Of a stretch of DNA of 43,931 nucleotides, positions 2,336 to 35,675 are shown piece after piece. The stretch lies in the IMG/VR virus record IMGVR_UViG_2541047897_000005; one strand, 5' to 3'. The notes below the pieces were generated by a model. That model saw only the letters and a program-made list of their open reading frames with translations. It ran no database searches and was not told the origin of the DNA. Every line of letters starts with the position of its first letter. The stretch's first letter is position 1. Source of the stretch: a virus. Taxonomy: Duplodnaviria > Heunggongvirae > Uroviricota > Caudoviricetes. The position numbers were made by a program, and so were the translations under genes.

Positions 2336-3088
2336 TCACACTTCGAATGCCAACTGAGGGGTAAAGACGTCCCGTTCAGCGTTGTAATTAAGTGAACTGG
2401 CACTGTTGAATGATTCAATGCGTTCCACAAGAACTTGCGTACGGGTTTCTTTACTTGCGGGAGCATATGGCGAACCTACCCAGGATTTGTCGATGCCTAT
2501 ATTTCTTGCGACGTTCGTGCTGTCTGCAGACGAAAGCGGTACATGAGTAAAAATGTCTTTATTTAACATCCGTAACCCATGAATCTTGGTGATTGGGTAG
2601 CCGTACTGATCTACAACATGACGTATAAGATCGCGTAGTTTAGCCCGACACGCTCTCGGTCGTTTTGCATCGTATTCCCCCATCGAGCCGATGCAGACGC
2701 GGGGAAACTCATGGCACAGACGAATAAATCGCTCATCTGGTTCGTTCATGTGCCACACCGGAGCACCAATAAATTTACCGTGAGGCCATGCCGCAATCAG
2801 GGCGTCATTCTCTTCACTGGTTCCGCCGATAACATCCGGGATAACCGCGAATGAGAAACGAGGGTGATTACCCCAGCGTTCAACAAATCTGTAATATTCA
2901 TTCCAGTCTACGGCCTTGTTTTTTGTCCAGAATGTGAATGCACCATTATCAAGAGCAAATGATTGGGTGACTTCGGAAGCCAGATCAATCTGAGCTGGAT
3001 TAGCAAAACTGATGAATGCGTGTCTGCCTTTCCAGGCTTTCAACGCACAGGTATCGGGAGTTATTGGACCACCGTGAAAATGAATCAT
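2336..3088 (-). CDS. TGT-fold protein, candidate DpdA-like DNA-guanine transglycosylase (250 aa)
   Basis: Motifs LDNGAFTFW (compare TGT DSGGFQVF, first catalytic Asp) and ADSTNVARN (compare TGT FDCVMPTRNARN, second Asp with identical D-x5-RN spacing); no C-terminal zinc-binding Cys cluster; motif comparison from memory only. Confidence 0.45.
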   Translation of the reverse strand: MIHFHGGPITPDTCALKAWKGRHAFISFANPAQIDLASEVTQSFALDNGAFTFWTKNKAVDWNEYYRFVERWGNHPRFSFAVIPDVIGGTSEENDALIAAWPHGKFIGAPVWHMNEPDERFIRLCHEFPRVCIGSMGEYDAKRPRACRAKLRDLIRHVVDQYGYPITKIHGLRMLNKDIFTHVPLSSADSTNVARNIGIDKSWVGSPYAPASKETRTQVLVERIESFNSASSLNYNAERDVFTPQLAFEV

Positions 3089-3243
3089 ACACTCTCCCGT
3101 TTATTATTTATCTCCTCAGCCAGTCGCTGGGCTTTCAGCGGATTTCGGATAACAGAAGGCCCGGGAAATACCCAGCCTCGCTTTGTAACGGAGTAGACGA
3201 AAGTGATCGCACCTACCCGGATATTATCGTGAGGATGCTTCAT
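3085..3243 (-). CDS. Unlisted small ORF (52 aa) translationally coupled between exo and the TGT-like gene
   Basis: ATG overlaps the exo stop in ATGA, and its stop overlaps the ATG of the 250-aa gene in ATGA; below the 60-aa cutoff of the supplied track. Confidence 0.4.
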
Positions 3244-3920
3244 CGCCATTGCTCCCCAAATACAAAACCAATTTCAGCCAGTGCCTCGTCCATTTTTTCG
3301 ATGAACTCCGGCACCATCTCGTCAAAACTCGCCATGTACTTTTCATCCCGCTCAACCACGACATAATGCAGTCCTTCACGCTTCATACGCGGGTCATAGT
3401 TGGCAAAGTACCAGGCATCTTTTCGCGTCACCCACATGCTGTACTGCACCTGGGCCATGTAAGCTGACTTTATGGCCTCGAAACCACCGAGCCGGAACTT
3501 CATGAAATCCCGGGAGGTAAACGGGCATTTCAGTTCAAGGCCGTTGCCGTCACTGCATAAACCATCTGGAGAGCAGGCGGTACGCATACTTTCGTCGCGA
3601 TAGATGATCGGTGATTCAGTAACATTCACGCCGGAAGTGAACTCAAACAGGGCTCTGGCGTCGTTCTCGTACTGTTTTCCCCAGGCCAGCGCTTTAGCGT
3701 TAACTTCCGGAGCCACACCGGTGCAAACCTCAGCAAGCAGGGTGTGGAAGTAGGACATTTTCATGTCAGGCCACTTTTTTCCGGAGCGGGGTTTTGCTAT
3801 TACGTTATGAACTTCTGAAGCTGTGATGACGCCGAGCCGTAATTTGTGCCACGCATCATCCCCCTGTTCGACAGCTCTCACGTCGATCCCGGTACGCTGC
3901 AGGATAATGTCCGGTGTCAT
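3240..3920 (-). CDS. exo: Lambda exonuclease (Red-alpha), 226 aa
   Basis: Near-identical over full length to recalled lambda Exo ([37 protein letters not shown]...). Confidence 0.97.
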
Positions 3921-4702
3921 GCTGCCACCTTCTGCTCTGCGGCTTTCTGTTTCAGGAATCCAAGAGCTTTTACTGCTTCGGCCTGTGTCAGTTCTGACGA
4001 TGCGCGAATGTCGCGGCGAAATATCTGGGAACAGAGCGGCAATAAGTCGTCATCCCATGTTTTATCCAGGGCGATCAGCAGAGTGTTAATCTCCTGCATG
4101 CTTTCATCGTTAACCGGAGTGATGTCGCGTTCCGGCTGACGTTCTGCAGTGTATGCGGTATTTTCGACAATGCGCTCGGCTTCATCCTTGTCATAGATAC
4201 CAGCAAATCCGAAGGCCAGACGGGCACACTGAATCATAGCTTTATGCCGTAACATTCGTTTGGGATGCGACTGCCACGGTCCCGTGATTTCTCTGCCTTC
4301 GCGGGTTTTGAATGGTTCGCGGCGGCATTCATCCATCCACTCGGTAACGCAGATCGGATGATTACGGTCCTTGCGGTAAATCCGGCATGTACATGATTCA
4401 TTGTCCTGCTCAAAGTCCATGCCATCAAACTGCTGGTTTTCATTAATGATGCGGGACCAGCCATCAACGCCCACCACAGGAACGATGCCGTTCTGCTTAT
4501 CAGGGAAGGCGTAAATTTCTTTCGTCCACGGATTAAGGCCGTACTGGTTGGCGACGATCAGCAATGCGATGAACTGCGCATCGCTGGCATCACCTTTAAA
4601 TGCCGTCTGACGAAGAGTGGTGATCAGTTCCTGTGGGTCGACAGAATCCATGCCGACACGTTCAGCCAGCTTCCCGGCTAGCGTTGCGAGTGCTGTACTC
4701 AT
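3917..4702 (-). CDS. bet: Recombination protein Bet (Red-beta), 261 aa
   Basis: Near-identical to recalled lambda Bet; overlaps the exo start by 4 nt as in lambda. Confidence 0.97.
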
Positions 4703-4707
4703 CCGTT

Positions 4708-5004
4708 TTATACCTCTGAATCAATATCAACATGGTGGTGAGCAATGGTTTCAACCATGTACCGGATGTGTTCTGCCATGCGCTCCTGAAACTCAACATC
4801 GTCATCAAACGCACGGGTAATGGCTTTTTTGCTGGCCCCGCAGCGTTGCAAATGATCGATGCAGAGTGATTCAAACAGGTGCTGTGGAAGACCTTTTTCC
4901 ATGTCGTCTGCCAGTTCTGCCTCTTTCTCTTCACGGGCGATCTGCTGGTAGTGACGCGCCCAGCTTTGAGCCTCAAGACGATCCTGAATGTAATAAGCGT
5001 TCAT
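4708..5004 (-). CDS. gam: Gam, RecBCD inhibitor (98-aa form)
   Basis: Matches recalled lambda Gam short form ([21 protein letters not shown]...HHVDIDSEV). Confidence 0.93.
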
Positions 5005-5079
5005 GGCTGAACTCCTGAAAATGGCTGTGAAAATATCGCCCGCGAAATGCCGGGCTGATTAGGAAAACAGGAAAGGGGA

Positions 5080-5370
5080 TTAGTGATTCAGGCCGTTGCC
5101 GCGCCCGTCGAGAAAAACTTCCACGAGCAAATCACGGGTATAAGTGCGCTCGATGCCGCGATGCAGATAAAGCCGTCCGCGTAAATTAGCTGATGCAGTC
5201 CAGGTACCATCTTTGTGTTTGACCAGCATTCCTGGCATGACCGCACCTCGATTAACGGTCTGCGTTCCGTAATGTTGATGAACCATAAAAACTCCTGCCC
5301 GTAAGCTGGGCTGCTGAACATATAGAGACTTCTGCGCGTATTCAGGCGGTGGATGGCCGCCGGTTGTCAT
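5080..5370 (-). CDS. Hypothetical protein, first gene of the leftward early operon (96 aa from ATG 5370; track ORF extends to a TTG at 5490)
   Basis: ORF with GAGG about 12 nt upstream of ATG 5370; the TTG-initiated 136-aa version adds an Arg-rich N-terminus (RLREVRGVKRTRERR); function unknown. Confidence 0.45.
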
Positions 5371-5539
5371 AACTAAGCCGCCTCGTTGAAACGACTGAGG
5401 TATGAAGTGTTGAGTTGATTTCAGCTGGTCACACCGACGTTCACGCGTCCGCTTCACCCCTCGCACTTCCCGAAGCCTGCTGAAATTCAAGCTGCGGACC
5501 TAAGCGGTCATCGCAACGGTGAATCAGGTGGTTGCCGTA

Positions 5540-5640
5540 TCGTTGTGTTGTTGCGATGAATTTATTTAAAACTATAGTTGTTTTGTTGTCAACAACAAAA
5601 GTTGTTTTATTGGTTGTTTTAGATGTAACTGGTTGTATTT
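5540..5640 (-). promoter_or_regulatory. Putative OL/PL: leftward early promoter with operator repeats
   Basis: Minus strand reads TTGACA (5592-5587), 17-nt spacer, TTAAAT (5569-5564); flanked by repeated GTTGTT/AACAAC motifs shared with the OR region. Confidence 0.5.
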
Positions 5641-5740
5641 AGGATGGGTTTATTTTGTGACTTGCATCGCATAGCGATAACTGAAGGGAGATTGTGGTGG
5701 TTTTTTGAACGGTATACGTGATGAGGGGAGGGGATAAAAG

Positions 5741-5766
5741 AAAACCCGGCACGGTGGCCGGGTATC
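5741..5766 (-). terminator. Rho-independent terminator after the 317-aa gene
   Basis: Minus-strand hairpin CCCGGC-CACCGU-GCCGGG followed by UUUUCUUUU, starting a few nt after the stop at 5768. Confidence 0.65.
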
Positions 5767-5767
5767 T

Positions 5768-6721
5768 TTATTCGAATGGAAGATCTATTTGCCTTTGAGG
5801 ATTCAACTGTTTTTTTACATGCTCAATTTCGAATATGGTTTTTATGGCATCTCCGATCATATATTGAGTTACTTTTAAATCTACAAGTAACATATCACCT
5901 TTAGAAAAATTTAAGGTGTTGTTATCAATATCGCTGATGAATTTCTGGTCTTTTATTTCAGCCAAAAAGCTACTGGCACCATCAGAAAACCGCCACCGGC
6001 TTCCTTCATTGAAGGAAATATTTTTAATTTGAAGGGCTTTCTCTACTGTGTACTCTGAAATTATTGATTCTGCTGGTAGATTGACTTTGAAATAATGTGC
6101 TTCTTGCTTGTTGATCGTCATGAATGTCAAACCATCATCGACAGTAGAGGCAAAGCTGTCAATGCCTTCCTGCTCTAATGGCTTACTTATAACTTCTTGT
6201 AATGAAGAGCGAAGTTTAATATTTTTATAAAGTTCAATAACGTTACTGTCGTAGATCTCGCTTTCGTCATCAACAAAGACTTCGATGTTGCTATCAGGCA
6301 AATTGTGTAATTTTTTTATTTTCCTTGGACCTATCCATTTTATCAGTTGAATTAGGCCTTTGCATATTTTTTCTTTAGAACCAGGACAGAGTCCAATAAA
6401 AGCAATCAAATTCGCAGCGGCTGTTGCTGAATCGCCGGATAAAAAATCAACAGCCTGTTTGAACCAAGATGTAGATGAGGCAACCAGATCTATTCCAAAT
6501 GAGCCAGCTTTAAATGATGCATTGACTTTTACAGAAACAACAGTCTTGTTTCCGTAGAGAGTTTTACCGGCTTCCTCTAATGCATCTGATAGTGATAGAA
6601 GGGCAGGAGCAAGGTCTCGCACGTTCATTTCATGCGTTTCCAGTGCCGGACCGTCGTATACTATCCTGAACTTCATATCATTGGTTTCCGAATTGTTGCC
6701 CGCATCCATTATGGCATTCAC
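5768..6721 (-). CDS. Hypothetical 317-aa protein at the rexAB-equivalent locus; candidate superinfection-exclusion/defence gene
   Basis: Long ORF between the repressor gene and OL/PL; visibly AT-rich, Lys/Ile/Asn/Ser-rich codon use unlike flanking phage genes; own terminator; no recognisable motif. Confidence 0.8.
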   Translation of the reverse strand: MNAIMDAGNNSETNDMKFRIVYDGPALETHEMNVRDLAPALLSLSDALEEAGKTLYGNKTVVSVKVNASFKAGSFGIDLVASSTSWFKQAVDFLSGDSATAAANLIAFIGLCPGSKEKICKGLIQLIKWIGPRKIKKLHNLPDSNIEVFVDDESEIYDSNVIELYKNIKLRSSLQEVISKPLEQEGIDSFASTVDDGLTFMTINKQEAHYFKVNLPAESIISEYTVEKALQIKNISFNEGSRWRFSDGASSFLAEIKDQKFISDIDNNTLNFSKGDMLLVDLKVTQYMIGDAIKTIFEIEHVKKQLNPQRQIDLPFE

Positions 6722-6782
6722 CTGATCACATATACAGTTAATTTACGATATTGTCTTAAATCTTAAAACTTCTATTGTATGG

Positions 6783-7472
6783 CTACCCATGCTTCCTATA
6801 CGTCTGCGGCATGCTCCCAATAACCTTACCGAAGATGAACACCCGGTTCATCTCGTCTTTCTCGATCGGGTCCCAAGGTGAGTAGCTCTTGTTATCAGAG
6901 ATAACCAGCAGCTTATCCTTCATCATTTGCAGACGCTTTACATGGGCTGTGTCGTCGTACAGAAACGCATAGATACCATCACCGTCGAAAGATTTAACCG
7001 TGATATCAACGAACAGCAGCTCACCTGGTTCGATCGTTCCTGACATGCTGTCACCGCGTACGTTAATGATACGGATATTTTCCGCCTTCCTGCCATCGAA
7101 CATGTGACGAGCATCGTCAAACGAATACTCAACCGAACGTAGAACTTCTACAAACTCACGGTTGATGACTCCCGGCCCGGCACTCACTTCGATATCAAGA
7201 ACGTCAATCTTAAAGTATTTGGAATGGCTGACAGTTGTTTGTATTGGTTGCACTGTACTGTCTGACATATTTCCAACGCCAGAAGATAACCATTCTGCGC
7301 GCACACCCAAAGCGTTCGCGATCTCCACGATTTTAGTTGTTTGGTTAGCTTTCCCTGTTTCGATTTTCTGAATAGCTGCTTGGCTAACCCCGACCAAATC
7401 CCCAAGCGCCTTTTGTGTAAGGCCTCGCGCTAATCTGGCTTCTTTAAGTCTTTCTGAGAGTGTTGTTTTCAT
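6783..7472 (-). CDS. cI: CI-type prophage repressor, HTH plus S24 LexA-like autopeptidase domain (229 aa from ATG 7472)
   Basis: N-terminal HTH (LTQKALGDLVGVSQAAIQKIETG), Ala-Gly cleavage site (VSAGPG), GDSM serine and VKRL lysine motifs; divergent from cro. Confidence 0.9.
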   Translation of the reverse strand: MKTTLSERLKEARLARGLTQKALGDLVGVSQAAIQKIETGKANQTTKIVEIANALGVRAEWLSSGVGNMSDSTVQPIQTTVSHSKYFKIDVLDIEVSAGPGVINREFVEVLRSVEYSFDDARHMFDGRKAENIRIINVRGDSMSGTIEPGELLFVDITVKSFDGDGIYAFLYDDTAHVKRLQMMKDKLLVISDNKSYSPWDPIEKDEMNRVFIFGKVIGSMPQTYRKHG

Positions 7473-7576
7473 AGTCCAAATGTACAACCAAGGTTTTATT
7501 TCATCAAACGAAAATGGTTGTTGACTAAAAACAACCATGGTTTTAATCTTGATTCAAATTAACCACGGAGGTTGTT
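7473..7576 (+). promoter_or_regulatory. OR region: PR for cro with overlapping operators, and probable PRM
   Basis: TTGACT (7521-7526), 17-nt spacer, TAATCT (7544-7549); 9-bp inverted repeat ATGGTTGTT/AACAACCAT (7514-7522, 7530-7538) and perfect palindrome AACCATGGTT (7533-7542); GGAGG RBS before cro. Confidence 0.6.
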
Positions 7577-7807
7577 ATGAACCCAGCCATCAAAACAGCG
7601 ATCAATATCGTTGGTTCACAAAAGAAACTAGGCGCTGCCTGCGAAGTTTCACAGCAGGCCGTCTATAAGTGGCTTCACAACAAAGCAAAGGTATCCCCTG
7701 AACATGTCGGCAGCATTGTTACGGCTACTGGTGGAGTAGTGAAGGCATACCAGATTCGCCCGGATCTTCCGAAGTTGTTTCCACACACTGAAAAGAACGC
7801 AGCTTAA
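7577..7807 (+). CDS. cro: Cro-like HTH regulator, YdaS-like (76 aa)
   Basis: Small HTH protein divergent from the repressor; pattern resembles Rac YdaS as recalled. Confidence 0.8.
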   Translation: MNPAIKTAINIVGSQKKLGAACEVSQQAVYKWLHNKAKVSPEHVGSIVTATGGVVKAYQIRPDLPKLFPHTEKNAA

Positions 7808-7818
7808 ATTTCCATTTC

Positions 7819-7831
7819 ACGCTCTTTAACA
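7819..7831 (+). promoter_or_regulatory. boxA-like element (CGCTCTTTAACAA) downstream of cro
   Basis: Near-match to the boxA consensus of nut sites and rrn antiterminators; no clear GC-rich boxB hairpin follows. Confidence 0.4.
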
Positions 7832-7876
7832 ATAAGCAATCAACTTAACAGTCAATTCAAACTAAAGGAGTCAATT

Positions 7877-8416
7877 ATGCAACCACTTACATACCAACAG
7901 ACTAGCGGATTTAGCCCGACTGCGGTGATAAATCGTTCTCAAACAAAACAAGCTCCAGGCCACGAAAAAATCCGTGATGCCGTCCGCGCCTGGTCGGCTG
8001 TAGATAATCAGGATGTCGTTGCCGCACTCATTGTGAATGAGTATCGGGAGCAGGGCGGCGGCACCATCGATTTCCCTGATGATGTCAGCCGTGCACGCCA
8101 GAAGCTGTTCCGCTTCCTCGATAACAAATTCGATTCTGAAAAATACCGAAATAACGTGCGTGAACTGACCCCGGCAATTCTGGCGGTACTACCGCTGGAA
8201 TATCGCGGTTACCTAGTTGAGCAGGATAGCTTCATGGCTCGGCTGGCTGAAATGGAAAAGGAACTCAGTGAGGCAAAGCAGGCGGTCATTCTCAACGCAC
8301 CACGCCACCAGAAACTGAAGGAGATGAGTGAAGGCATTGTGTCGATGTTTCGAGTGGACCCGGATCTGGCTGGTCCACTGATGGCGATGGTCACCACCAT
8401 GCTGGGGGCAATATGA
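7877..8416 (+). CDS. YdaT-like regulatory protein in the cII position (179 aa)
   Basis: AGGAG RBS; motifs EYREQGGG and LTPAILAVLPLEYRG resemble Rac YdaT as recalled. Confidence 0.7.
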   Translation: MQPLTYQQTSGFSPTAVINRSQTKQAPGHEKIRDAVRAWSAVDNQDVVAALIVNEYREQGGGTIDFPDDVSRARQKLFRFLDNKFDSEKYRNNVRELTPAILAVLPLEYRGYLVEQDSFMARLAEMEKELSEAKQAVILNAPRHQKLKEMSEGIVSMFRVDPDLAGPLMAMVTTMLGAI

Positions 8417-10429: not shown

Positions 10430-10496
10430 TGAAACAGGTGAGTTGAGTTCAAACTGTAGTACAATTCTCTCCAGTTTGAACAGGAAAGAATATGCT

Positions 10497-10829
10497 ATGA
10501 ATCCTTATATTTATCTTGGTGGTGCAATACTTGCAGAGGTCATTGGTACAACCTTAATGAAGTTTTCAGAAGGTTTTACACGGTTATGGCCATCTGTTGG
10601 TACAATTATTTGTTATTGTGCATCATTCTGGTTATTAGCTCAGACGCTGGCTTATATTCCTACAGGGATTGCTTATGCTATCTGGTCAGGAGTCGGTATT
10701 GTCCTGATTAGCTTACTATCATGGGGATTTTTCGGCCAACGGTTGGACCTGCCAGCCATTATAGGCATGATGTTGATTTGTGCCGGTGTGTTGGTTATTA
10801 ATTTATTGTCACGAAGCACACCACATTAA
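10497..10829 (+). CDS. emrE: EmrE, small multidrug resistance (SMR) efflux transporter (110 aa)
   Basis: Matches recalled E. coli EmrE (MNPYIYLGGAILAEVIGTTLMKFSEGF...); four TM segments; start at internal ATG 10497. Confidence 0.95.
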   Translation: MNPYIYLGGAILAEVIGTTLMKFSEGFTRLWPSVGTIICYCASFWLLAQTLAYIPTGIAYAIWSGVGIVLISLLSWGFFGQRLDLPAIIGMMLICAGVLVINLLSRSTPH

Positions 10830-11084
10830 AAATAATTTGTTTTTAAACGACTAAAATATGGAGGCTCGTATATTTATATGGGCCTCGTTTTATGCTTTTT
10901 GTTAATGTCTTTAGTTTTTATTCATTCTTTTGTGCTTTCAAGATTATGGTGTAAGAAAATTGCAATGCGATTATTGTTGTATATTCAAGATAATGTGACC
11001 TTAATTGTCTTTTTAAATAAAAATTAAACAAAAATCATATCTCACCACTAAGGTTTATAAAAGCATACTTTAGCAGGTGTCACC

Positions 11085-12611
11085 ATGAAAAAAGCCATAG
11101 CATATATGCGATTTTCATCACCAGGTCAGATGTCTGGTGATTCATTAAACCGCCAGAGAAGGCTTATTACTGAATGGCTAAAGGTAAATAGTGATTATTA
11201 CCTTGATACCGTAACGTATGAAGATTTGGGGTTAAGCGCATTCAATGGAAAGCATGCACAATCAGGAGCTTTTTCGGAATTTTTAGATGCTATAGAACAT
11301 GGTTATATATTGCCAGGGACTACATTGTTAGTTGAAAGTCTGGACAGACTTTCAAGAGAAAAAGTCGGTGAAGCGATTGAGCGTCTGAAATTGATTTTGA
11401 ATCACGGTATTGATGTTATAACTCTTTGCGATAATACAGTCTATAATATTGACTCATTGAATGAGCCATATTCATTAATAAAAGCCATACTTATAGCACA
11501 AAGGGCAAATGAAGAAAGCGAGATAAAGTCAAGTCGGGTTAAATTATCATGGAAGAAAAAACGGCAGGATGCACTGGAGTCAGGCACGATTATGACGGCT
11601 TCTTGTCCGAGATGGCTCTCATTGGATGACAAAAGAACGGCTTTTGTTCCAGACCCCGACAGGGTGAAAACTATTGAGCTAATTTTTAAACTCAGGATGG
11701 AAAGGCGCTCATTGAATGCAATAGCCAAGTATTTAAATGATCATGCTGTAAAGAATTTCTCAGGAAAAGAAAGTGCATGGGGACCTTCTGTAATTGAAAA
11801 ATTATTAGCGAATAAAGCTCTGATAGGTATATGCGTACCTTCATATCGTGCAAGAGGGAAAGGGATAAGTGAAATCGCTGGCTATTATCCCAGAGTCATA
11901 TCAGATGATTTGTTTTACGCTGTACAGGAAATTCGGTTGGCACCTTTTGGTATTAGCAATAGTAGCAAGAATCCTATGCTAATAAATCTACTTCGAACAG
12001 TTATGAAGTGTGAGGCTTGTGGTAATACCATGATTGTTCATGCGGTATCTGGAAGTTTGCATGGCTATTATGTTTGTCCGATGAGAAGATTACATCGATG
12101 TGACAGACCATCAATAAAAAGAGATTTGGTTGATTATAATATCATTAATGAATTGCTTTTTAATTGTAGCAAAATTCAACCAGTTGAAAACAAGAAAGAT
12201 GCTAATGAAACTTTAGAGTTAAAAATTATTGAGCTTCAGATGAAAATTAATAATTTAATCGTTGCATTGTCTGTCGCGCCTGAAGTTACCGCTATAGCAG
12301 AGAAAATAAGACTATTAGATAAGGAATTACGAAGGGCTTCGGTATCATTAAAAACTTTGAAGAGTAAAGGGGTGAGTTCACTTGGTGATTTTCATGCTAT
12401 TGATTTAACCAGTAAAAATGGGCGAGAGCTATGTCGTACACTTGCCTATAAAATATTCGAAAAAATTATAATTAATACAGATAATAAAACCTGTGATATC
12501 TATTTTATGAATGGCATTGTTTTTAAACACTATCCTTTAATGAAAGTAATATCCGCCCAGCAGGCGATAAGTACTCTTAAATATATGGTTGATGGTGAGA
12601 TTTATTTTTGA
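11085..12611 (+). CDS. ybcK: Large serine recombinase (508 aa), DLP12 YbcK-like
   Basis: N-terminal resolvase catalytic motif (YMRFSSPGQ...LNRQ), central recombinase region, Cys-rich zinc ribbon (CEACGN...C...C), C-terminal coiled coil; very AT-rich. Confidence 0.88.
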   Translation: MKKAIAYMRFSSPGQMSGDSLNRQRRLITEWLKVNSDYYLDTVTYEDLGLSAFNGKHAQSGAFSEFLDAIEHGYILPGTTLLVESLDRLSREKVGEAIERLKLILNHGIDVITLCDNTVYNIDSLNEPYSLIKAILIAQRANEESEIKSSRVKLSWKKKRQDALESGTIMTASCPRWLSLDDKRTAFVPDPDRVKTIELIFKLRMERRSLNAIAKYLNDHAVKNFSGKESAWGPSVIEKLLANKALIGICVPSYRARGKGISEIAGYYPRVISDDLFYAVQEIRLAPFGISNSSKNPMLINLLRTVMKCEACGNTMIVHAVSGSLHGYYVCPMRRLHRCDRPSIKRDLVDYNIINELLFNCSKIQPVENKKDANETLELKIIELQMKINNLIVALSVAPEVTAIAEKIRLLDKELRRASVSLKTLKSKGVSSLGDFHAIDLTSKNGRELCRTLAYKIFEKIIINTDNKTCDIYFMNGIVFKHYPLMKVISAQQAISTLKYMVDGEIYF

Positions 12612-12935
12612 GTAATAATCACTTTTTCAACCGTGCTATGGTATGAAAGTAAAGTGACTAATATGATATTAACTATCTTGAACGAAGCGCCCTGAGCTAT
12701 AGTTTTACTATAGGCACTGCCACTGGATGTTGGCATTCTTGCTCTAGTAGCTCAACAATACCCAATCACAAAACAATTCACTGATAACAAACTTTGTGCA
12801 CGTGCTTGGTTATGGCGAACAGGTGATGTTAACCTCTTGCCTGAATGCCACTCCACTTCATTAAGTATCTGAGCACCGAGAGGCTGGTCACGCCCCCATT
12901 AAAAATAATTTCTTTTGAATCGAGTGAAATAGGTT

Positions 12936-12962
12936 AGCCCGCATAAGTGCGGGCTGCTTTTT
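12936..12962 (+). terminator. Putative intrinsic terminator between ybcK and the esterase gene
   Basis: Hairpin AGCCCGC-loop-GCGGGCT followed by GCTTTTT. Confidence 0.45.
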
Positions 12963-14004
12963 ACAGGTCAGCGTTTGTTTTTTGTTGTTGGGTAGCGGTT
13001 TTTATGGGGGTTCCCAGGTTTTTAGTAAACCACTCAACAACTCTGTTTATAATAATTGGCTGATACCATGTATTATCGCCATGCTCAGCCCCTTCTACCA
13101 GAACGTACTCAGCGTTATCGCCGTTCTTCTTCAACATCCTGAATAGTTTGGCGCTTTGCTCAGGTGAAACCAGAGTGTCTTTGCTACCATGCATAATAAG
13201 AAATGGGGGTTTTACTCCTTTCATATGTCCGATTGGACTGGCGTTTAGCGCTTTTTCTTTTGACGCTGTTATGGGGGCTCCCGCAAAACTTCTGAATGCA
13301 GGGCCATTGATCATTAAGGCTTCGGTTACGGCAGGAGATCGATGAACCTCCTGCACTGATTCAGGGAACCCCTCGCCAATATTCAACAAGTCAGAAATCC
13401 CATAAAGTGTGGCAACTGCCTGAACATCTGCTGATTGCTGAAGAAAGTCACCTTTATTAAAGGTTTTGTCACCATTTGTAGTTCCCATCATCTGGGCAAG
13501 CCATCCACCGGCAGAGTCACCCAGAACTCCGATTCTTTGAGGATCAATCCCATAATCGCTGGCATGTTCTCTCAAGTAACGTATTGCAGCTTTCCCATCC
13601 TCAACTGGTGCTGGAAATGTATCAGGAATTGTTCTGTATTCTACAGCGGCCACAACAAAACCAGCTTCAGCCAGAGCCATTCTCATTTCAATAAATTTGT
13701 CATGTTCAGAAGACATGAATCCGCCGCCGGGATAATAAATAATGGCTGGTTTTAAATCATTTGTTCGCGGGACAAGAACTGACATGTGAAGCTGTCTGAC
13801 AGAACGAGTTCCTTTTATCTGGGAATAAACAACATCACCAATGAGATCGACCTGGTTTCTGGTGGGTGAAACACTAATGATATCTGCACCCGGGGTGTAA
13901 CCAGGAAGATTAGTCTGGACAGGTGTTGCACAACTCCCGACCGACATGGCCATTGACATACCATACAATAGTGTTGCAGATGATAATATCTTGTTAATTT
14001 TCAT
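12961..14004 (-). CDS. Secreted alpha/beta-hydrolase (esterase/lipase family), 347 aa
   Basis: N-terminal signal peptide with possible lipobox (MSVGSC), HGGG-type motif (YPGGGF), nucleophile elbow GDSAGG, C-terminal His/Asp motifs; AT-rich. Confidence 0.85.
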   Translation of the reverse strand: MKINKILSSATLLYGMSMAMSVGSCATPVQTNLPGYTPGADIISVSPTRNQVDLIGDVVYSQIKGTRSVRQLHMSVLVPRTNDLKPAIIYYPGGGFMSSEHDKFIEMRMALAEAGFVVAAVEYRTIPDTFPAPVEDGKAAIRYLREHASDYGIDPQRIGVLGDSAGGWLAQMMGTTNGDKTFNKGDFLQQSADVQAVATLYGISDLLNIGEGFPESVQEVHRSPAVTEALMINGPAFRSFAGAPITASKEKALNASPIGHMKGVKPPFLIMHGSKDTLVSPEQSAKLFRMLKKNGDNAEYVLVEGAEHGDNTWYQPIIINRVVEWFTKNLGTPIKTATQQQKTNADL

Positions 14005-15856: not shown

Positions 15857-15941
15857 AGTCAGAGATAACAATCAACTAATACTGTTTTGTTGATTTTTGC
15901 TTGTAATTGGCGTTCTGGTCTGATTTTTGTGGAGTAAGTTG

Positions 15942-16325
15942 ATGCGTGATATTCAGATGGTTCTTGAGCGTTGGGGAGCGTGGGCGGCTAATAATCATGA
16001 AGATGTGACCTGGTCGTCCGTTGCCGCCGGTTTTAAGGGATTAATTCCTTCAAAAGTAAAATCTCGCCCGCAATGTTGTGACGATGACGCGATGATCATT
16101 TGCGGGTGCATGGCCCGTCTGAAAAAGAACAACAGCGATTTACACGATTTATTAGTAGATTATTATGTATGTGGTATGACATTCATGTCACTGGCAAGTA
16201 AGCATTGCTGCTCGGATGGTTATATCGGGAAAAGGTTACAGAAGGCTGAGGGCATAATTGAAGGGATGTTAATGGCATTAGATATCCGGTTAGATATGGA
16301 TATCGTTGCTAATAATTCTAATTGA
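15942..16325 (+). CDS. quuD: Late-gene antiterminator Q (127 aa from ATG 15942)
   Basis: GGAG RBS; Cys-rich Q-like protein directly upstream of the late/lysis region. Confidence 0.85.
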
Positions 16326-20986: not shown

Positions 20987-24667
<3,681 letters not shown>

Positions 24668-35130: not shown

Positions 35131-35675
35131 AAACGGGGGCCGAAGCAGTCCGGGCGCTGACCACACAGCTTCCGGCGTTTCGTCAGAAACTGAGCGACGG
35201 CTGGTATCAGGTACGTATTGCCGGGCGTGATGCAGGTGAAACTGAATTATCAGCCCGTCTTAATGAACCGCTGGCAAATGGTGCCGTGATCCACATTGTG
35301 CCGCGTCTGGCGGGAGCCAAAAGTGGCGGTCTTTTTCAGGCTGTGCTGGGGGCGGCGCTGATTGCGGTGGCATGGTGGAACCCTGCAGGTTGGTTGGGGG
35401 CTGCCGCAATTACAGGAATGTATGGTGCGGGGGCCAGTATGGTGCTCGGTGGTGTGGCGCAGATGCTGGCACCGAAAGCCAGAACTCCCCGTACACAGAC
35501 AACGGATAACGGCAAACAGAACACCTATTTCTCCTCACTGGATAACATGGTTGCCCAGGGCAATGTTCTGCCGGTTCTGTACGGTGAAATGCGCGTGGGG
35601 TCACGGGTGATTTCGCAGGAGATCAGCACGGCAGATGAAGGAGATGGTGGTCAGGTTGTGGTGATTGGTCGTTGA
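35028..35675 (+). CDS. I: Tail assembly protein I (215 aa)
   Basis: Matches recalled lambda gpI N- and C-termini; overlaps the K 3' end in another frame as in lambda. Confidence 0.9.
   Translation: MAATHTLPLASPGMARICLYGDLQRFGRRIDLRVKTGAEAVRALTTQLPAFRQKLSDGWYQVRIAGRDAGETELSARLNEPLANGAVIHIVPRLAGAKSGGLFQAVLGAALIAVAWWNPAGWLGAAAITGMYGAGASMVLGGVAQMLAPKARTPRTQTTDNGKQNTYFSSLDNMVAQGNVLPVLYGEMRVGSRVISQEISTADEGDGGQVVVIGR

What the first reader, a model, noticed from the sequence alone, without database searches (positions are those of the whole stretch)
5491..5640. No recognisable N gene; structured leader at the start of the PL transcript (possible put/nut-like RNA)
Downstream of the putative PL the first about 190 nt are non-coding with no N-like ORF. 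The transcript would begin with a perfect 10-bp inverted repeat (plus 5508-5517 TCATCGCAAC and 5550-5559 GTTGCGATGA) enclosing a 32-nt loop. HK022-type phages place cis-acting put RNAs at this position to antiterminate without N, so this phage may use RNA-based or otherwise non-canonical antitermination.
Basis: inference. Interest (0 to 1): 0.5.

Follow-up and report, generated by a model that had tools for sequence, protein, structure and literature searches.

The report
Hairpin starting an N-less phage's early-left transcript
The inverted repeat is real and forms a small hairpin at the very start of the early-left (PL) transcript of a lambda-like prophage that lacks the N antiterminator gene, but it is not an HK022-type put RNA or a nut site, and it looks like an ordinary 5' leader hairpin of unproven function.

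Summary
A perfect 10-bp inverted repeat (5508-5517 / 5550-5559, 32-nt loop) lies directly downstream of a well-supported PL promoter. The leader before kil is non-coding: 187 nt to ATG 5370, 271 nt to the conserved kil start at 5286. No N homologue was found in any early ORF.

The put/nut interpretation fails.
- A covariance model built from 24 put RNAs scores HK022 putL, HK022 putR and HK639 putL at 47-96 bits. Nothing in the window exceeds 9 bits.
- There is no second copy after PR, no boxA or boxB in the leader, and no Rfam match.
- The leader folds no better than shuffled sequence.

The hairpin does appear to be a real feature.
- The predicted start A5557 (same promoter geometry as lambda PL) is the first paired base.
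- Relatives with other immunity regions keep 7-9 of the pairs.
- Leaders from other genera keep a hairpin at the same place, with two compensatory pairs.

My best reading is a 5'-terminal leader hairpin, probably protecting the mRNA 5' end. That function is inferred, not shown.

Two side findings are more unusual. An exact consensus boxA sits alone in the cro-cII spacer. Two short motifs flanking it recur, in the same order, in the PL leader.

The parts
5587..5592 (-). PL -35 hexamer TTGACA
   Evidence: Read from the sequence. Aligns base for base with the PR -35 region at 7521-7526.
5564..5569 (-). PL -10 hexamer TTAAAT (17-nt spacer)
   Evidence: Six bases separate it from A5557, the same spacing as between the lambda PL -10 (GATACT) and A35582.
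5577..5620 (-). OL operator repeats (three copies of AAAACAAC, half-site AACAAC[C/T])
   Evidence: 5 of the 9 copies in the window lie at OL or OR, against 2.2 expected by chance.
5557..5557 (-). Predicted transcription start (A of CAT); also the point where homology with phages of other immunity types begins
   Evidence: homology breakpoint at 5556/5557; geometry shared with lambda PL. The start has not been mapped experimentally.
5550..5559 (-). 5' arm of the inverted repeat (UCAUCGCAAC; the transcribed part AUCGCAAC is 5557-5550)
5518..5549 (-). 32-nt C/A-rich loop (AACACAACGAUACGGCAACCACCUGAUUCACC). Positions 5555-5541, which span arm and loop, are complementary to the GcvB R1 seed.
   Evidence: The loop is replaced in type C relatives and is only 9 nt long in other genera.
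5508..5517 (-). 3' arm of the inverted repeat (GUUGCGAUGA)
   Evidence: Invariant in the conserved leader module apart from one singleton variant.
5287..5557 (-). Untranslated PL leader upstream of kil. The leader stretch 5372-5557 is present at 95-99% identity in 2210 of 5426 complete E. coli genomes.
5482..5496 (-). Motif M1 (CGCAGCUUGAAUUUC), shared with the cro-cII spacer. Its 3' part can pair with 5425-5415.
5408..5420 (-). Motif M2 (AAUCAACUCAACA), shared with the cro-cII spacer
5373..5397 (-). 9-bp hairpin covering the GAGG upstream of ATG 5370. Substitutions among relatives keep the pairing.
5080..5286 (-). kil (68 aa, FtsZ-inhibitor family), the first gene of the PL operon
   Evidence: phrog_294, E 2.5e-38; the NCBI PGAP annotation aa; the MVHQHYG start is conserved across genera while upstream sequences differ.
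5038..5055 (-). Weak terminator-like hairpin between kil and gam
   Evidence: -11.7 kcal/mol, tail GAUAUUUUCA.
5744..5763 (.). Bidirectional terminator ending the leftward operon of cI and the 317-aa ORF, just upstream of PL
7820..7832 (+). Exact consensus boxA CGCUCUUUAACAA in the cro-cII spacer, with no boxB hairpin
   Evidence: the only zero-mismatch match in the window; the spacer is unstructured: -3.6 kcal/mol, z +0.9.
7798..7812 (+). M1' (CGCAGCUUAAAUUUC), overlapping the cro stop codon
7838..7850 (+). M2' (AAUCAACUUAACA)

Best explanation
The inverted repeat is the 5'-terminal stem-loop of the PL (early-left) transcript of a lambdoid prophage. That operon begins with a long untranslated leader followed by kil-gam-bet-exo instead of N. 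Transcription most likely starts at A5557, so the first eight transcribed bases (AUCGCAAC) pair with GUUGCGAU (5517-5510) and leave no unpaired 5' end.

The most likely role is the generic one for such a structure: shielding the 5' end of the long early-left mRNA from 5'-end-dependent decay (RppH and RNase E entry), as the 5' hairpin of ompA does.

It is not a put RNA and not a nut site. There is no evidence that it modifies RNA polymerase.

Shown: the sequence, the promoter context, the absence of N, the failure of the put and nut tests, and the conservation of a start-proximal hairpin in diverged leaders.

Inferred: the start site and the stabilising function.
For: 1. Promoter and start.
- The -35, -10 and operators are shared with OR.
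- The geometry is identical to lambda PL.
- Homology with phages of two other immunity types begins exactly at 5556/5557.

2. Pairing kept where sequence differs.
- Type B relatives read CCAU[G/A]UCGCAAC and keep 7 Watson-Crick pairs plus 1-2 further A-U or G.U pairs, with their predicted +1 (G or A) pairing with U5510 (AU 30, GU 11).
- Silvania, Enterobacter, Kluyvera and IMG/VR loci have AUCGACAAC-9 nt-GUUGUC at the same place. Against the window's CGCAAC/GUUGCG, two pairs change on both sides: G-C to A-U and C-G to G-C.
- Other leader classes also appear, on inspection, able to pair their first bases: AUCGCG..CGCG(C)AU and AUCAC..GUGAU. This reading was not tested by folding.

3. RNAalifold on 41 distinct E. 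coli leaders keeps this hairpin.

4. No coding signal in the leader. The arginine-rich frame gives 7 synonymous, 14 non-synonymous and 1 stop change, the same as the other frames, and some variants carry indels.

5. The leader stretch 5372-5557 is present in 41% of complete E. coli genomes, with nothing annotated over it in the 40 records listed.
Against: - The start site is predicted, not mapped.
- The hairpin is weak (-8.6 kcal/mol, z -0.98). In full-length folds the 3' arm pairs elsewhere.
- Type C relatives retain only 5 bp (CAUCG/CGAUG), starting at about +5.
- The covariation amounts to a single evolutionary split between two leader classes. Within E. coli there are only one-sided changes and two singleton breaks in this stem.
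- The 96% identity of the leader is no higher than that of the flanking genes, so conservation alone does not show selection.
- No stability data exist.
Confidence: 0.4

Rival explanations
1. Chance or hitch-hiking inverted repeat with no function. The leader is a recently spread mosaic segment and the hairpin is incidental.
For: - About 2.75 such repeat seeds are expected per window by chance, and 8 loci are present.
- Folding z-scores lie between -0.98 and +0.26.
- Type C relatives lack most of the hairpin.
- There are no double compensatory changes within E. coli.
Against: - A hairpin starts at or within a few bases of the predicted +1 in the leader classes examined, in different genera and behind different promoters. 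One pair of classes differs by two compensatory pairs.
- The 5' arm lies in the variable immunity module, yet stays complementary to the conserved 3' arm.
Confidence: 0.3
2. Regulatory leader. The C/A-rich 5' region and the alternative pairings control elongation or translation. Options are Rho loading or attenuation before the toxic kil gene, or docking of a host small RNA (GcvB).
For: - The first 40 nt are C-rich and G-poor by my own count (15 C, 5 G).
- M2 (5420-5408) and the cro-cII spacer are C/A-rich and unstructured, like Rho-loading (rut) sites.
- The 3' arm can pair instead with 5496-5491.
- From my own knowledge (Cardinale et al. 2008), kilR in the Rac prophage is silenced by Rho.
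- Positions 5555-5541 give 12 contiguous Watson-Crick pairs (15 with two G.U) with the GcvB R1 seed, among the top three matches in 88 kb.
- A phage RNA that sponges GcvB (AgvB) is known (PMC4104026).
Against: - The C-rich stretch is only about 45 nt long. The rest of the leader is G-rich.
- The U-tract after the alternative hairpin is poor (UUGAAUUUC), and most relatives carry a mismatch in that hairpin (G5499A).
- The GcvB match was found post hoc, C/A-rich 5' ends are common, and the loop is replaced in type C relatives.
- PL is repressed in lysogens.
Confidence: 0.15
3. Part of a degenerate or non-canonical nut-like pair. The PL leader and the cro-cII spacer share the M1 and M2 motifs. With the lone consensus boxA, they would recruit Nus factors (ribosomal-RNA-operon style), or an unknown phage factor, for N-independent antitermination.
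For: - The colinear M1/M2 similarity is not reached by any of 1000 dinucleotide shuffles.
- An exact 13-nt boxA lies at the nutR position.
- Terminator-like hairpins lie in both early operons.
- No N gene is present.
Against: - No boxA lies between M1 and M2 in the leader.
- Phage 4A7 has the same leader but neither boxA nor M1/M2 after cro.
- The boxA spacer is confined to six phages of one immunity type.
- The hairpin under review lies outside the M1-M2 segment.
Confidence: 0.08
4. HK022-type put RNA. The nascent leader folds, binds the beta' zinc-binding domain of RNA polymerase, and makes it resistant to terminators.
For: - The position is the same as putL, starting at +1 to +3 of the PL transcript (PMC9378689).
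- The phage lacks N.
- Terminator-like hairpins lie downstream.
Against: - The put covariance model scores at most 9.1 bits (E 0.9) anywhere in the window and finds nothing in the leader or after cro. It scores putL at 91-98 bits and putR at 47-50 bits in HK022, HK639 and four IMG/VR put phages.
- There is no second copy.
- The conserved put blocks (GAACGGC, GUCGG, GGCG, CAAU) are absent.
- Hairpin and loop are not conserved in type C relatives.
- There is no excess folding energy.
Confidence: 0.04

Closest known systems
5'-terminal stabilising stem-loops of E. coli mRNAs (ompA 5' UTR hairpin type; protection from RppH and RNase E 5'-end sensing)
   Same: The hairpin begins at the predicted first nucleotide and leaves no single-stranded 5' end. 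It heads a long polycistronic mRNA. Its position rather than its sequence is kept among diverged leaders.
   Different: There are no half-life data. The stem is short (8 bp) with an unusually large 32-nt loop. The start site is not mapped.
HK022 / HK639 put RNAs (putL, putR)
   Same: The element sits at the very start of the PL transcript of a lambdoid phage that has no N antiterminator.
   Different: There is no sequence or structure match to the put model. It is a single hairpin rather than two irregular stem-loops of about 70 nt. There is no putR-like copy. The PR side carries a boxA instead.
Lambda nutL / nutR (boxA + boxB) with the N protein
   Same: The operon layout is the same (PL-leader..., PR-cro-site-cII). 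The PL start has the same geometry and the same first bases (C|AUC). A consensus boxA is present at the nutR position.
   Different: There is no N homologue, no boxB hairpin at either site, and no boxA in the PL leader.
KilS, the 5'-UTR-derived small RNA upstream of kilR in the Rac prophage (E. coli K-12)
   Same: It is a non-coding RNA region between a PL-type promoter region and a kil-family gene.
   Different: There is no sequence similarity. KilS has its own terminator, and the window leader has none.

Membership tests
put antiterminator RNA (HK022 type) | Match to the conserved put sequence and structure (covariance model of 24 put RNAs) | tested here: not met
   the best hit in the window is 9.1 bits (E 0.9) at 23097-23126, with none in 5287-5560 or 7540-7900. 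Controls: HK022 putL 95.5 bits, HK639 putL 91.2 bits, HK022 putR 47.3 bits.
put antiterminator RNA (HK022 type) | Two related copies, one downstream of PL and one downstream of PR | tested here: not met
   One search finds none. In HK022 and in four IMG/VR put phages, the model finds both putL and putR.
put antiterminator RNA (HK022 type) | Location at the start of the PL transcript | tested here: met
   The hairpin starts at the predicted +1. putL starts at +3 (PMC9378689).
put antiterminator RNA (HK022 type) | Terminator read-through that depends on the beta' zinc-binding domain | not testable with these tools
   Needs reporter assays in rpoC mutants.
N / nut antitermination (lambda type) | N-family protein encoded downstream of PL | tested here: not met
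   Pfam and PHROGs scans of 30 early ORFs give no N family. The relative's annotation lists only a Q-like antiterminator. The arginine-rich frame in the leader shows no coding signature and is interrupted in relatives. An arginine-rich-motif scan finds no other candidate.
N / nut antitermination (lambda type) | boxA followed by a boxB hairpin in the PL leader (nutL) | tested here: not met
   no boxA match with up to 3 mismatches in the leader. Folds show no GC stem with a pentaloop.
N / nut antitermination (lambda type) | boxA plus boxB after cro (nutR) | tested here: inconclusive
   An exact boxA lies at 7820-7832, but no hairpin follows it and the spacer is unstructured.
5'-terminal stabilising stem-loop | Stem begins within about 0-2 nt of the transcript 5' end | tested here: inconclusive
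   Met if +1 is A5557, as promoter geometry, the lambda analogy and the homology breakpoint all predict. There is no experimental start site.
5'-terminal stabilising stem-loop | Pairing conserved among relatives despite sequence change | tested here: met
   Type B relatives keep 8-9 pairs, counting G.U. Leaders from other genera keep a hairpin with two compensatory pairs. Exception: type C relatives keep only 5 bp.
5'-terminal stabilising stem-loop | Lengthens mRNA half-life | not testable with these tools
   Needs rifampicin chase experiments with stem mutants.
Any Rfam family | Covariance-model match | tested here: not met
   No hit at gathering score in the whole window. Only noise at E about 9-10 in 5000-8000.
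AgvB-type phage anti-sRNA | 51-60 nt RNA located 3' of PR', with a conserved 3' region and a variable 5' seed mimic | tested here: not met
   The location differs (PL leader rather than PR' moron site; PMC4104026). Only the C/A-rich complement to GcvB is shared. The conserved AgvB 3' region was not compared with the window.

The most novel reading that the evidence does not exclude
This widespread group of N-less lambdoid prophages would use an undescribed, N-independent and put-independent way of getting through its early terminators. On the right there is a lone consensus boxA in an unstructured, C-rich cro-cII spacer, which would recruit the host Nus complex in the manner of ribosomal RNA operons. 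On the left there is a leader RNA sharing the flanking motifs M1 and M2, with the 5' hairpin as part of that leader domain.
Probability: 0.1. Interest if true: 0.75.

Novelty: new member of a known kind. Interest (0 to 1): 0.3.

Why it matters
If the best reading is right, this is an ordinary leader hairpin. Its main value is negative: absence of N in a lambdoid phage does not by default mean a put-type RNA, and the put family can be recognised or excluded cleanly with a covariance model.

The context is more interesting than the hairpin. This unannotated leader sits in about 41% of complete E. coli genomes, ahead of a toxic kil gene and the Red recombination genes. How N-less, put-less lambdoid phages read through their early terminators is unknown. 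The lone consensus boxA after cro, and the motifs shared between the PL leader and that spacer, give a testable starting point.

Tried and rejected
- put homology. I built a covariance model from 24 put RNAs collected from HK022, HK639 and IMG/VR. It was negative in the window and in 31 kil-leader loci.
- Rfam, at gathering score and at E <= 10: nothing.
- A hidden N-like micro-ORF. The frame from TTG 5490 encodes ...RLREVRGVKRTRERR... at the N position. It is interrupted by TAG in IdasGreatGrand and other variants, some variants carry indels, and its synonymous/non-synonymous pattern is the same as in the other frames. Rejected.
- Homology to the Rac KilS small RNA: none.
- Identity with AgvB. 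AgvB lies 3' of PR'. Three EcOnc sites in O157 Sakai that I checked were not the kil leader. This check was not exhaustive.
- A phage with the same PL followed by putL. L255 shares only about 14 nt of promoter sequence with the window and no wider similarity. Dropped.
- A second copy of the conserved leader core after cro in sister phages of other genera. Only operator repeats recur. A 14-nt match occurs 5-7 kb away in three loci and was not pursued.
- RNA duplex energies against GcvB. RNAduplex scores were uninformative because of long interior loops, so I replaced them with ungapped pair counts.

Full report
**Context**

The window is a lambda-like prophage, and several early genes and sites can be placed on it.
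- Leftward (minus strand): int (1-1143), xis, several small ORFs, exo (3240-3920), bet (3917-4702), gam (4708-5004) and kil (5080-5286).
- Rightward of these on the map lie the region under review and a bidirectional terminator (5744-5763).
- Next, still on the minus strand, come a 317-aa ORF of unknown function (5768-6721) and a cI-type repressor (6783-7538).
- On the plus strand follow a YdaS-like cro (7577-7807), a YdaT-like cII (7877-8416), O, P, ren, inserted accessory genes, the nin region and a Q-like antiterminator (15927-16325).
- The closest phages are PhiR47_2, IdasGreatGrand, PhiR34_1 and others, at about 97% identity.

**The observation**

The inverted repeat is exactly as described: 5508-5517 TCATCGCAAC and 5550-5559 GTTGCGATGA, 10 of 10 complementary, 32 nt apart.

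PL is well supported.
- On the minus strand, TTGACA (5592-5587), 17 nt and TTAAAT (5569-5564) lie among three copies of the word AAAACAAC. That word occurs twice more at OR. These are 5 of the 9 copies in the window, against 2.2 expected.
- The PL and PR promoter regions align almost base for base.
- The promoter follows the terminator of the leftward cI operon.
- In lambda the sequence is GATACT|GAGCAC|A, with that A at 35582, which I recall (from memory) to be the mapped PL start. The window has the same layout, TTAAAT|AAATTC|A, which predicts +1 = A5557.
- Homology with phages carrying other immunity regions starts exactly at 5556/5557. The mosaic joint therefore sits at the transcription start.

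In RNA the stem would be 8 bp (AUCGCAAC / GUUGCGAU) and would begin at the first nucleotide.

On its own the repeat is not statistically remarkable.
- Perfect inverted repeats of 10 bp or more with loops up to 60 nt occur at 8 loci in the window, and about 2.75 seeds are expected by chance.
- The 58-nt 5' end folds at -8.6 kcal/mol (z = -0.98).
- Longer stretches of the leader fold no better than shuffles: z = +0.26, +0.66, -0.30 and -0.26.

**No N gene**

Pfam and PHROGs scans of 30 ORFs in the early operons and the cI-PL interval found these families and no N family:
- Kil, a cI-type repressor, YdaS-like and YdaT-like regulators, O, P and Ren;
- an excisionase, a DksA-like protein, NinB, RusA and Q;
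- several accessory genes.

The PHROGs-style annotation of IdasGreatGrand lists only a Q-like antiterminator.

One frame of the leader encodes an arginine-rich stretch (RLREVRGVKRTRERR) at the place where N would be. It is not a gene.
- It is cut by a TAG codon in IdasGreatGrand and other variants.
- Some variants carry 1-nt indels.
- Among 41 distinct leaders the changes are 7 synonymous, 14 non-synonymous and 1 stop, no different from the other two frames.

kil starts at ATG 5286. The NCBI PGAP annotation aa, and the MVHQHYG start with a strong ribosome-binding site is conserved in Citrobacter, Silvania, Enterobacter and Kluyvera, where the upstream sequence is unrelated. The untranslated leader is therefore 271 nt, or 187 nt up to the in-frame ATG 5370.

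**Is it a put RNA?**

I located HK022 putL and putR and the annotated HK639 putL-like RNA. I then collected more putL sequences from IMG/VR with a conserved 14-mer, aligned 24 put RNAs and built a covariance model.
- With filters off, the best score anywhere in the window is 9.1 bits (E 0.9), at 23097. Nothing lies in the leader or after cro.
- Controls: HK022 putL 95.5 bits, HK639 putL 91.2, HK022 putR 47.3 (putR was in the training alignment). In four IMG/VR put phages, putL scores 96-98 bits (three of the four putL sequences were in the training alignment) and a putR that was not in the alignment scores 47-50 bits.
- Put phages thus show a clear signature of two related copies. The window has neither.
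- Thirty-one kil-leader loci of all classes are also negative.
- Rfam gives nothing.

Membership in the put family is rejected.

**Is it a nut site?**

The leader has no boxA within three mismatches and no boxB-like hairpin. The cro-cII spacer, however, holds the only exact match in the window to the consensus boxA, CGCUCUUUAACAA (7820-7832). This is the position of nutR in lambda. No hairpin follows it, and the spacer is essentially unstructured and G-poor (-3.6 kcal/mol, z +0.9). The phage therefore has a Nus-factor site on the right but no recognisable N/boxB system.

**What the hairpin looks like in relatives**

The leader stretch 5372-5557 occurs in 2210 of 5426 complete E. coli genomes at 95-99% identity, with nothing annotated over it in the 40 records listed. 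Three immunity contexts are seen in E. coli.
- Type A is the window's own type.
- Type B reads ...TATTAT|CACCAT|[G/A]UCGCAAC. The predicted +1 (G or A) pairs with U5510 and the next U with G, giving 8-9 pairs.
- Type C replaces the first 35 nt, and only CAUCG/CGAUG (5 bp, from about +5) remains.

In other genera the kil leaders are unrelated in sequence, but most of those with a recognisable PL promoter start CAUCG downstream of it. The class-3 leaders start AUCACC or AUCAAC instead.
- One class reads AUCGACAAC-AAGCGCACC-GUUGUC. This is the same hairpin with a 9-nt loop. Relative to the window's CGCAAC/GUUGCG, two pairs change on both sides: G-C to A-U and C-G to G-C.
- Other classes appear, on inspection, able to pair their first bases too: AUCGCG...CGCG(C)AU and AUCAC...GUGAU. 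The latter class begins like lambda's own PL transcript.

RNAalifold on 41 distinct E. coli leaders keeps the 5' hairpin. Fourteen paired columns vary: ten keep pairing through one-sided changes, four are singleton breaks, and none is a double compensatory change.

The comparative support is real but thin. It amounts to one split with two compensatory pairs, plus a recurring positional pattern.

**Most likely function**

A stem that starts at +1 and leaves no single-stranded 5' end is the classic arrangement that protects E. coli mRNAs from RppH and from 5'-end-dependent RNase E attack. This is established knowledge from the ompA-type hairpins, not something tested here. I take it as the most likely role (about 40%), with 'no function' close behind (about 30%).

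Alternatives that the data allow:
- A regulatory role of the C/A-rich 5' region. This could be Rho loading ahead of the toxic kil gene, or pairing with GcvB. Positions 5555-5541 give 12 contiguous Watson-Crick pairs (15 with two G.U) with the GcvB R1 seed, among the three best matches in 88 kb. I found this post hoc.
- A relationship with the cro-cII spacer, described next.

**An unexpected link between the two early leaders**

The two best matches between the PL leader and the whole PR operon both fall in the cro-cII spacer and are colinear.
- M1: CGCAGCUUGAAUUUC (5496-5482) against CGCAGCUUAAAUUUC (7798-7812).
- M2: AAUCAACUCAACA (5420-5408) against AAUCAACUUAACA (7838-7850).
- None of 1000 dinucleotide shuffles of the leader reaches this colinear pair.

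After cro, the two motifs flank boxA and lie 25 nt apart. In the leader they lie 61 nt apart, no boxA lies between them, and their inner parts can pair.

Against a conserved paired function: phage 4A7 has the same leader but a different spacer without boxA, M1 or M2, and the boxA spacer is limited to six phages of this immunity type. This may be a relic of a common ancestor of the two sites, or a real pair of sites. It remains unexplained.

**Need for antitermination**

Terminator-like hairpins lie in both early operons.
- On the PL strand: 5055-5038 between kil and gam (-11.7 kcal/mol, poor U-tract) and 2092-2074 (-10.2).
- On the PR strand: 10861-10886 (-16.3) and 12935-12956 (-15.9, followed by CUUUUU), both upstream of Q.

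How the phage passes them is not known. Nothing here shows that the hairpin is involved.

**Verdict**

The feature is best filed as an undescribed instance of a 5' leader hairpin of an early phage operon, of modest interest. The lone boxA and the M1/M2 motifs are the parts of this region that would repay experiments.

Noticed in passing
window 7820-7832 (+), spacer 7808-7876: Exact 13-nt consensus boxA (CGCTCTTTAACAA) between the YdaS-like cro and the YdaT-like cII, at the nutR position. There is no boxB hairpin and no N gene. The spacer is unstructured and G-poor, like a Rho-loading region. It is confined to six phages of this immunity type.
   Followed up: partly
window 5496-5482 / 5420-5408 (-) versus 7798-7812 / 7838-7850 (+): Two colinear short motifs are shared between the PL leader and the cro-cII spacer, where they flank boxA. 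None of 1000 shuffles reaches this similarity. They are absent from the spacer of phage 4A7, which has the same leader.
   Followed up: partly
window 5555-5541 (-): CGCAACAACACAACG at the 5' end of the PL transcript gives 12 contiguous Watson-Crick pairs (15 with two G.U) with the R1 seed of the host small RNA GcvB. The known phage sponge of GcvB (AgvB) lies elsewhere, 3' of PR'.
   Followed up: partly
window 5768-6721 (-): A 317-aa ORF (phrog_3243, no Pfam domain) lies between cI and PL. Close relatives carry different cargo at this spot (GevT/GevA, HipA/HipD, an ASCH-domain gene). It looks like a variable accessory or defence hotspot, in the position of rexAB in lambda.
   Followed up: no
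window 10443-14004: Accessory genes are inserted in the PR operon between ren and ninB. They are an SMR-family transporter (10443-10829), a large serine recombinase (11085-12611) and an oppositely oriented esterase (12961-14004). Strong terminator-like hairpins lie at 10861-10886 and 12935-12956, upstream of Q.
   Followed up: no
window 5080-5490 (-): The kil gene is annotated inconsistently in relatives, as 128, 96 or 68 aa. Conservation across genera supports the 68-aa form starting at ATG 5286. The stretch 5370-5287 varies less than the upstream leader (5 variable codons in 28, against 22 in 40), so it may be constrained or translated.
   Followed up: partly
window 5373-5397 (-): A 9-bp hairpin covers the GAGG upstream of ATG 5370. 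All four variable pairs among 41 leader variants keep pairing (U.G to C-G, U.G to U-A, and so on).
   Followed up: partly
L088-L175 (kil loci of Citrobacter, Silvania, Enterobacter, Kluyvera and IMG/VR): kil leaders in other genera share a conserved core, ...GCGCAUCAGGUUAAAGAAACGUUCCGCCAGCCUGGCGACAAGGGCAAA, with a CGCCA/UGGCG hairpin directly before kil. One class starts AUCACCAAGACGCACC..., homologous to the start of the lambda PL transcript. These phages also have no gene between PL and kil. In three loci a 14-nt piece of the core recurs 5-7 kb into the PR-side strand.
   Followed up: partly
window 2336-3088 (-): A 250-aa ORF in the PL operon matches a PHROG annotated as queuine tRNA-ribosyltransferase (phrog_887, E 4e-99).
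   Followed up: no
window 7536-7538 / 7514-7538: The cI start codon lies inside the PR promoter and operator palindrome (ATGGTTGTTGACTAAAAACAACCAT). This suggests a leaderless cI transcript from PRM, as in lambda.
   Followed up: no
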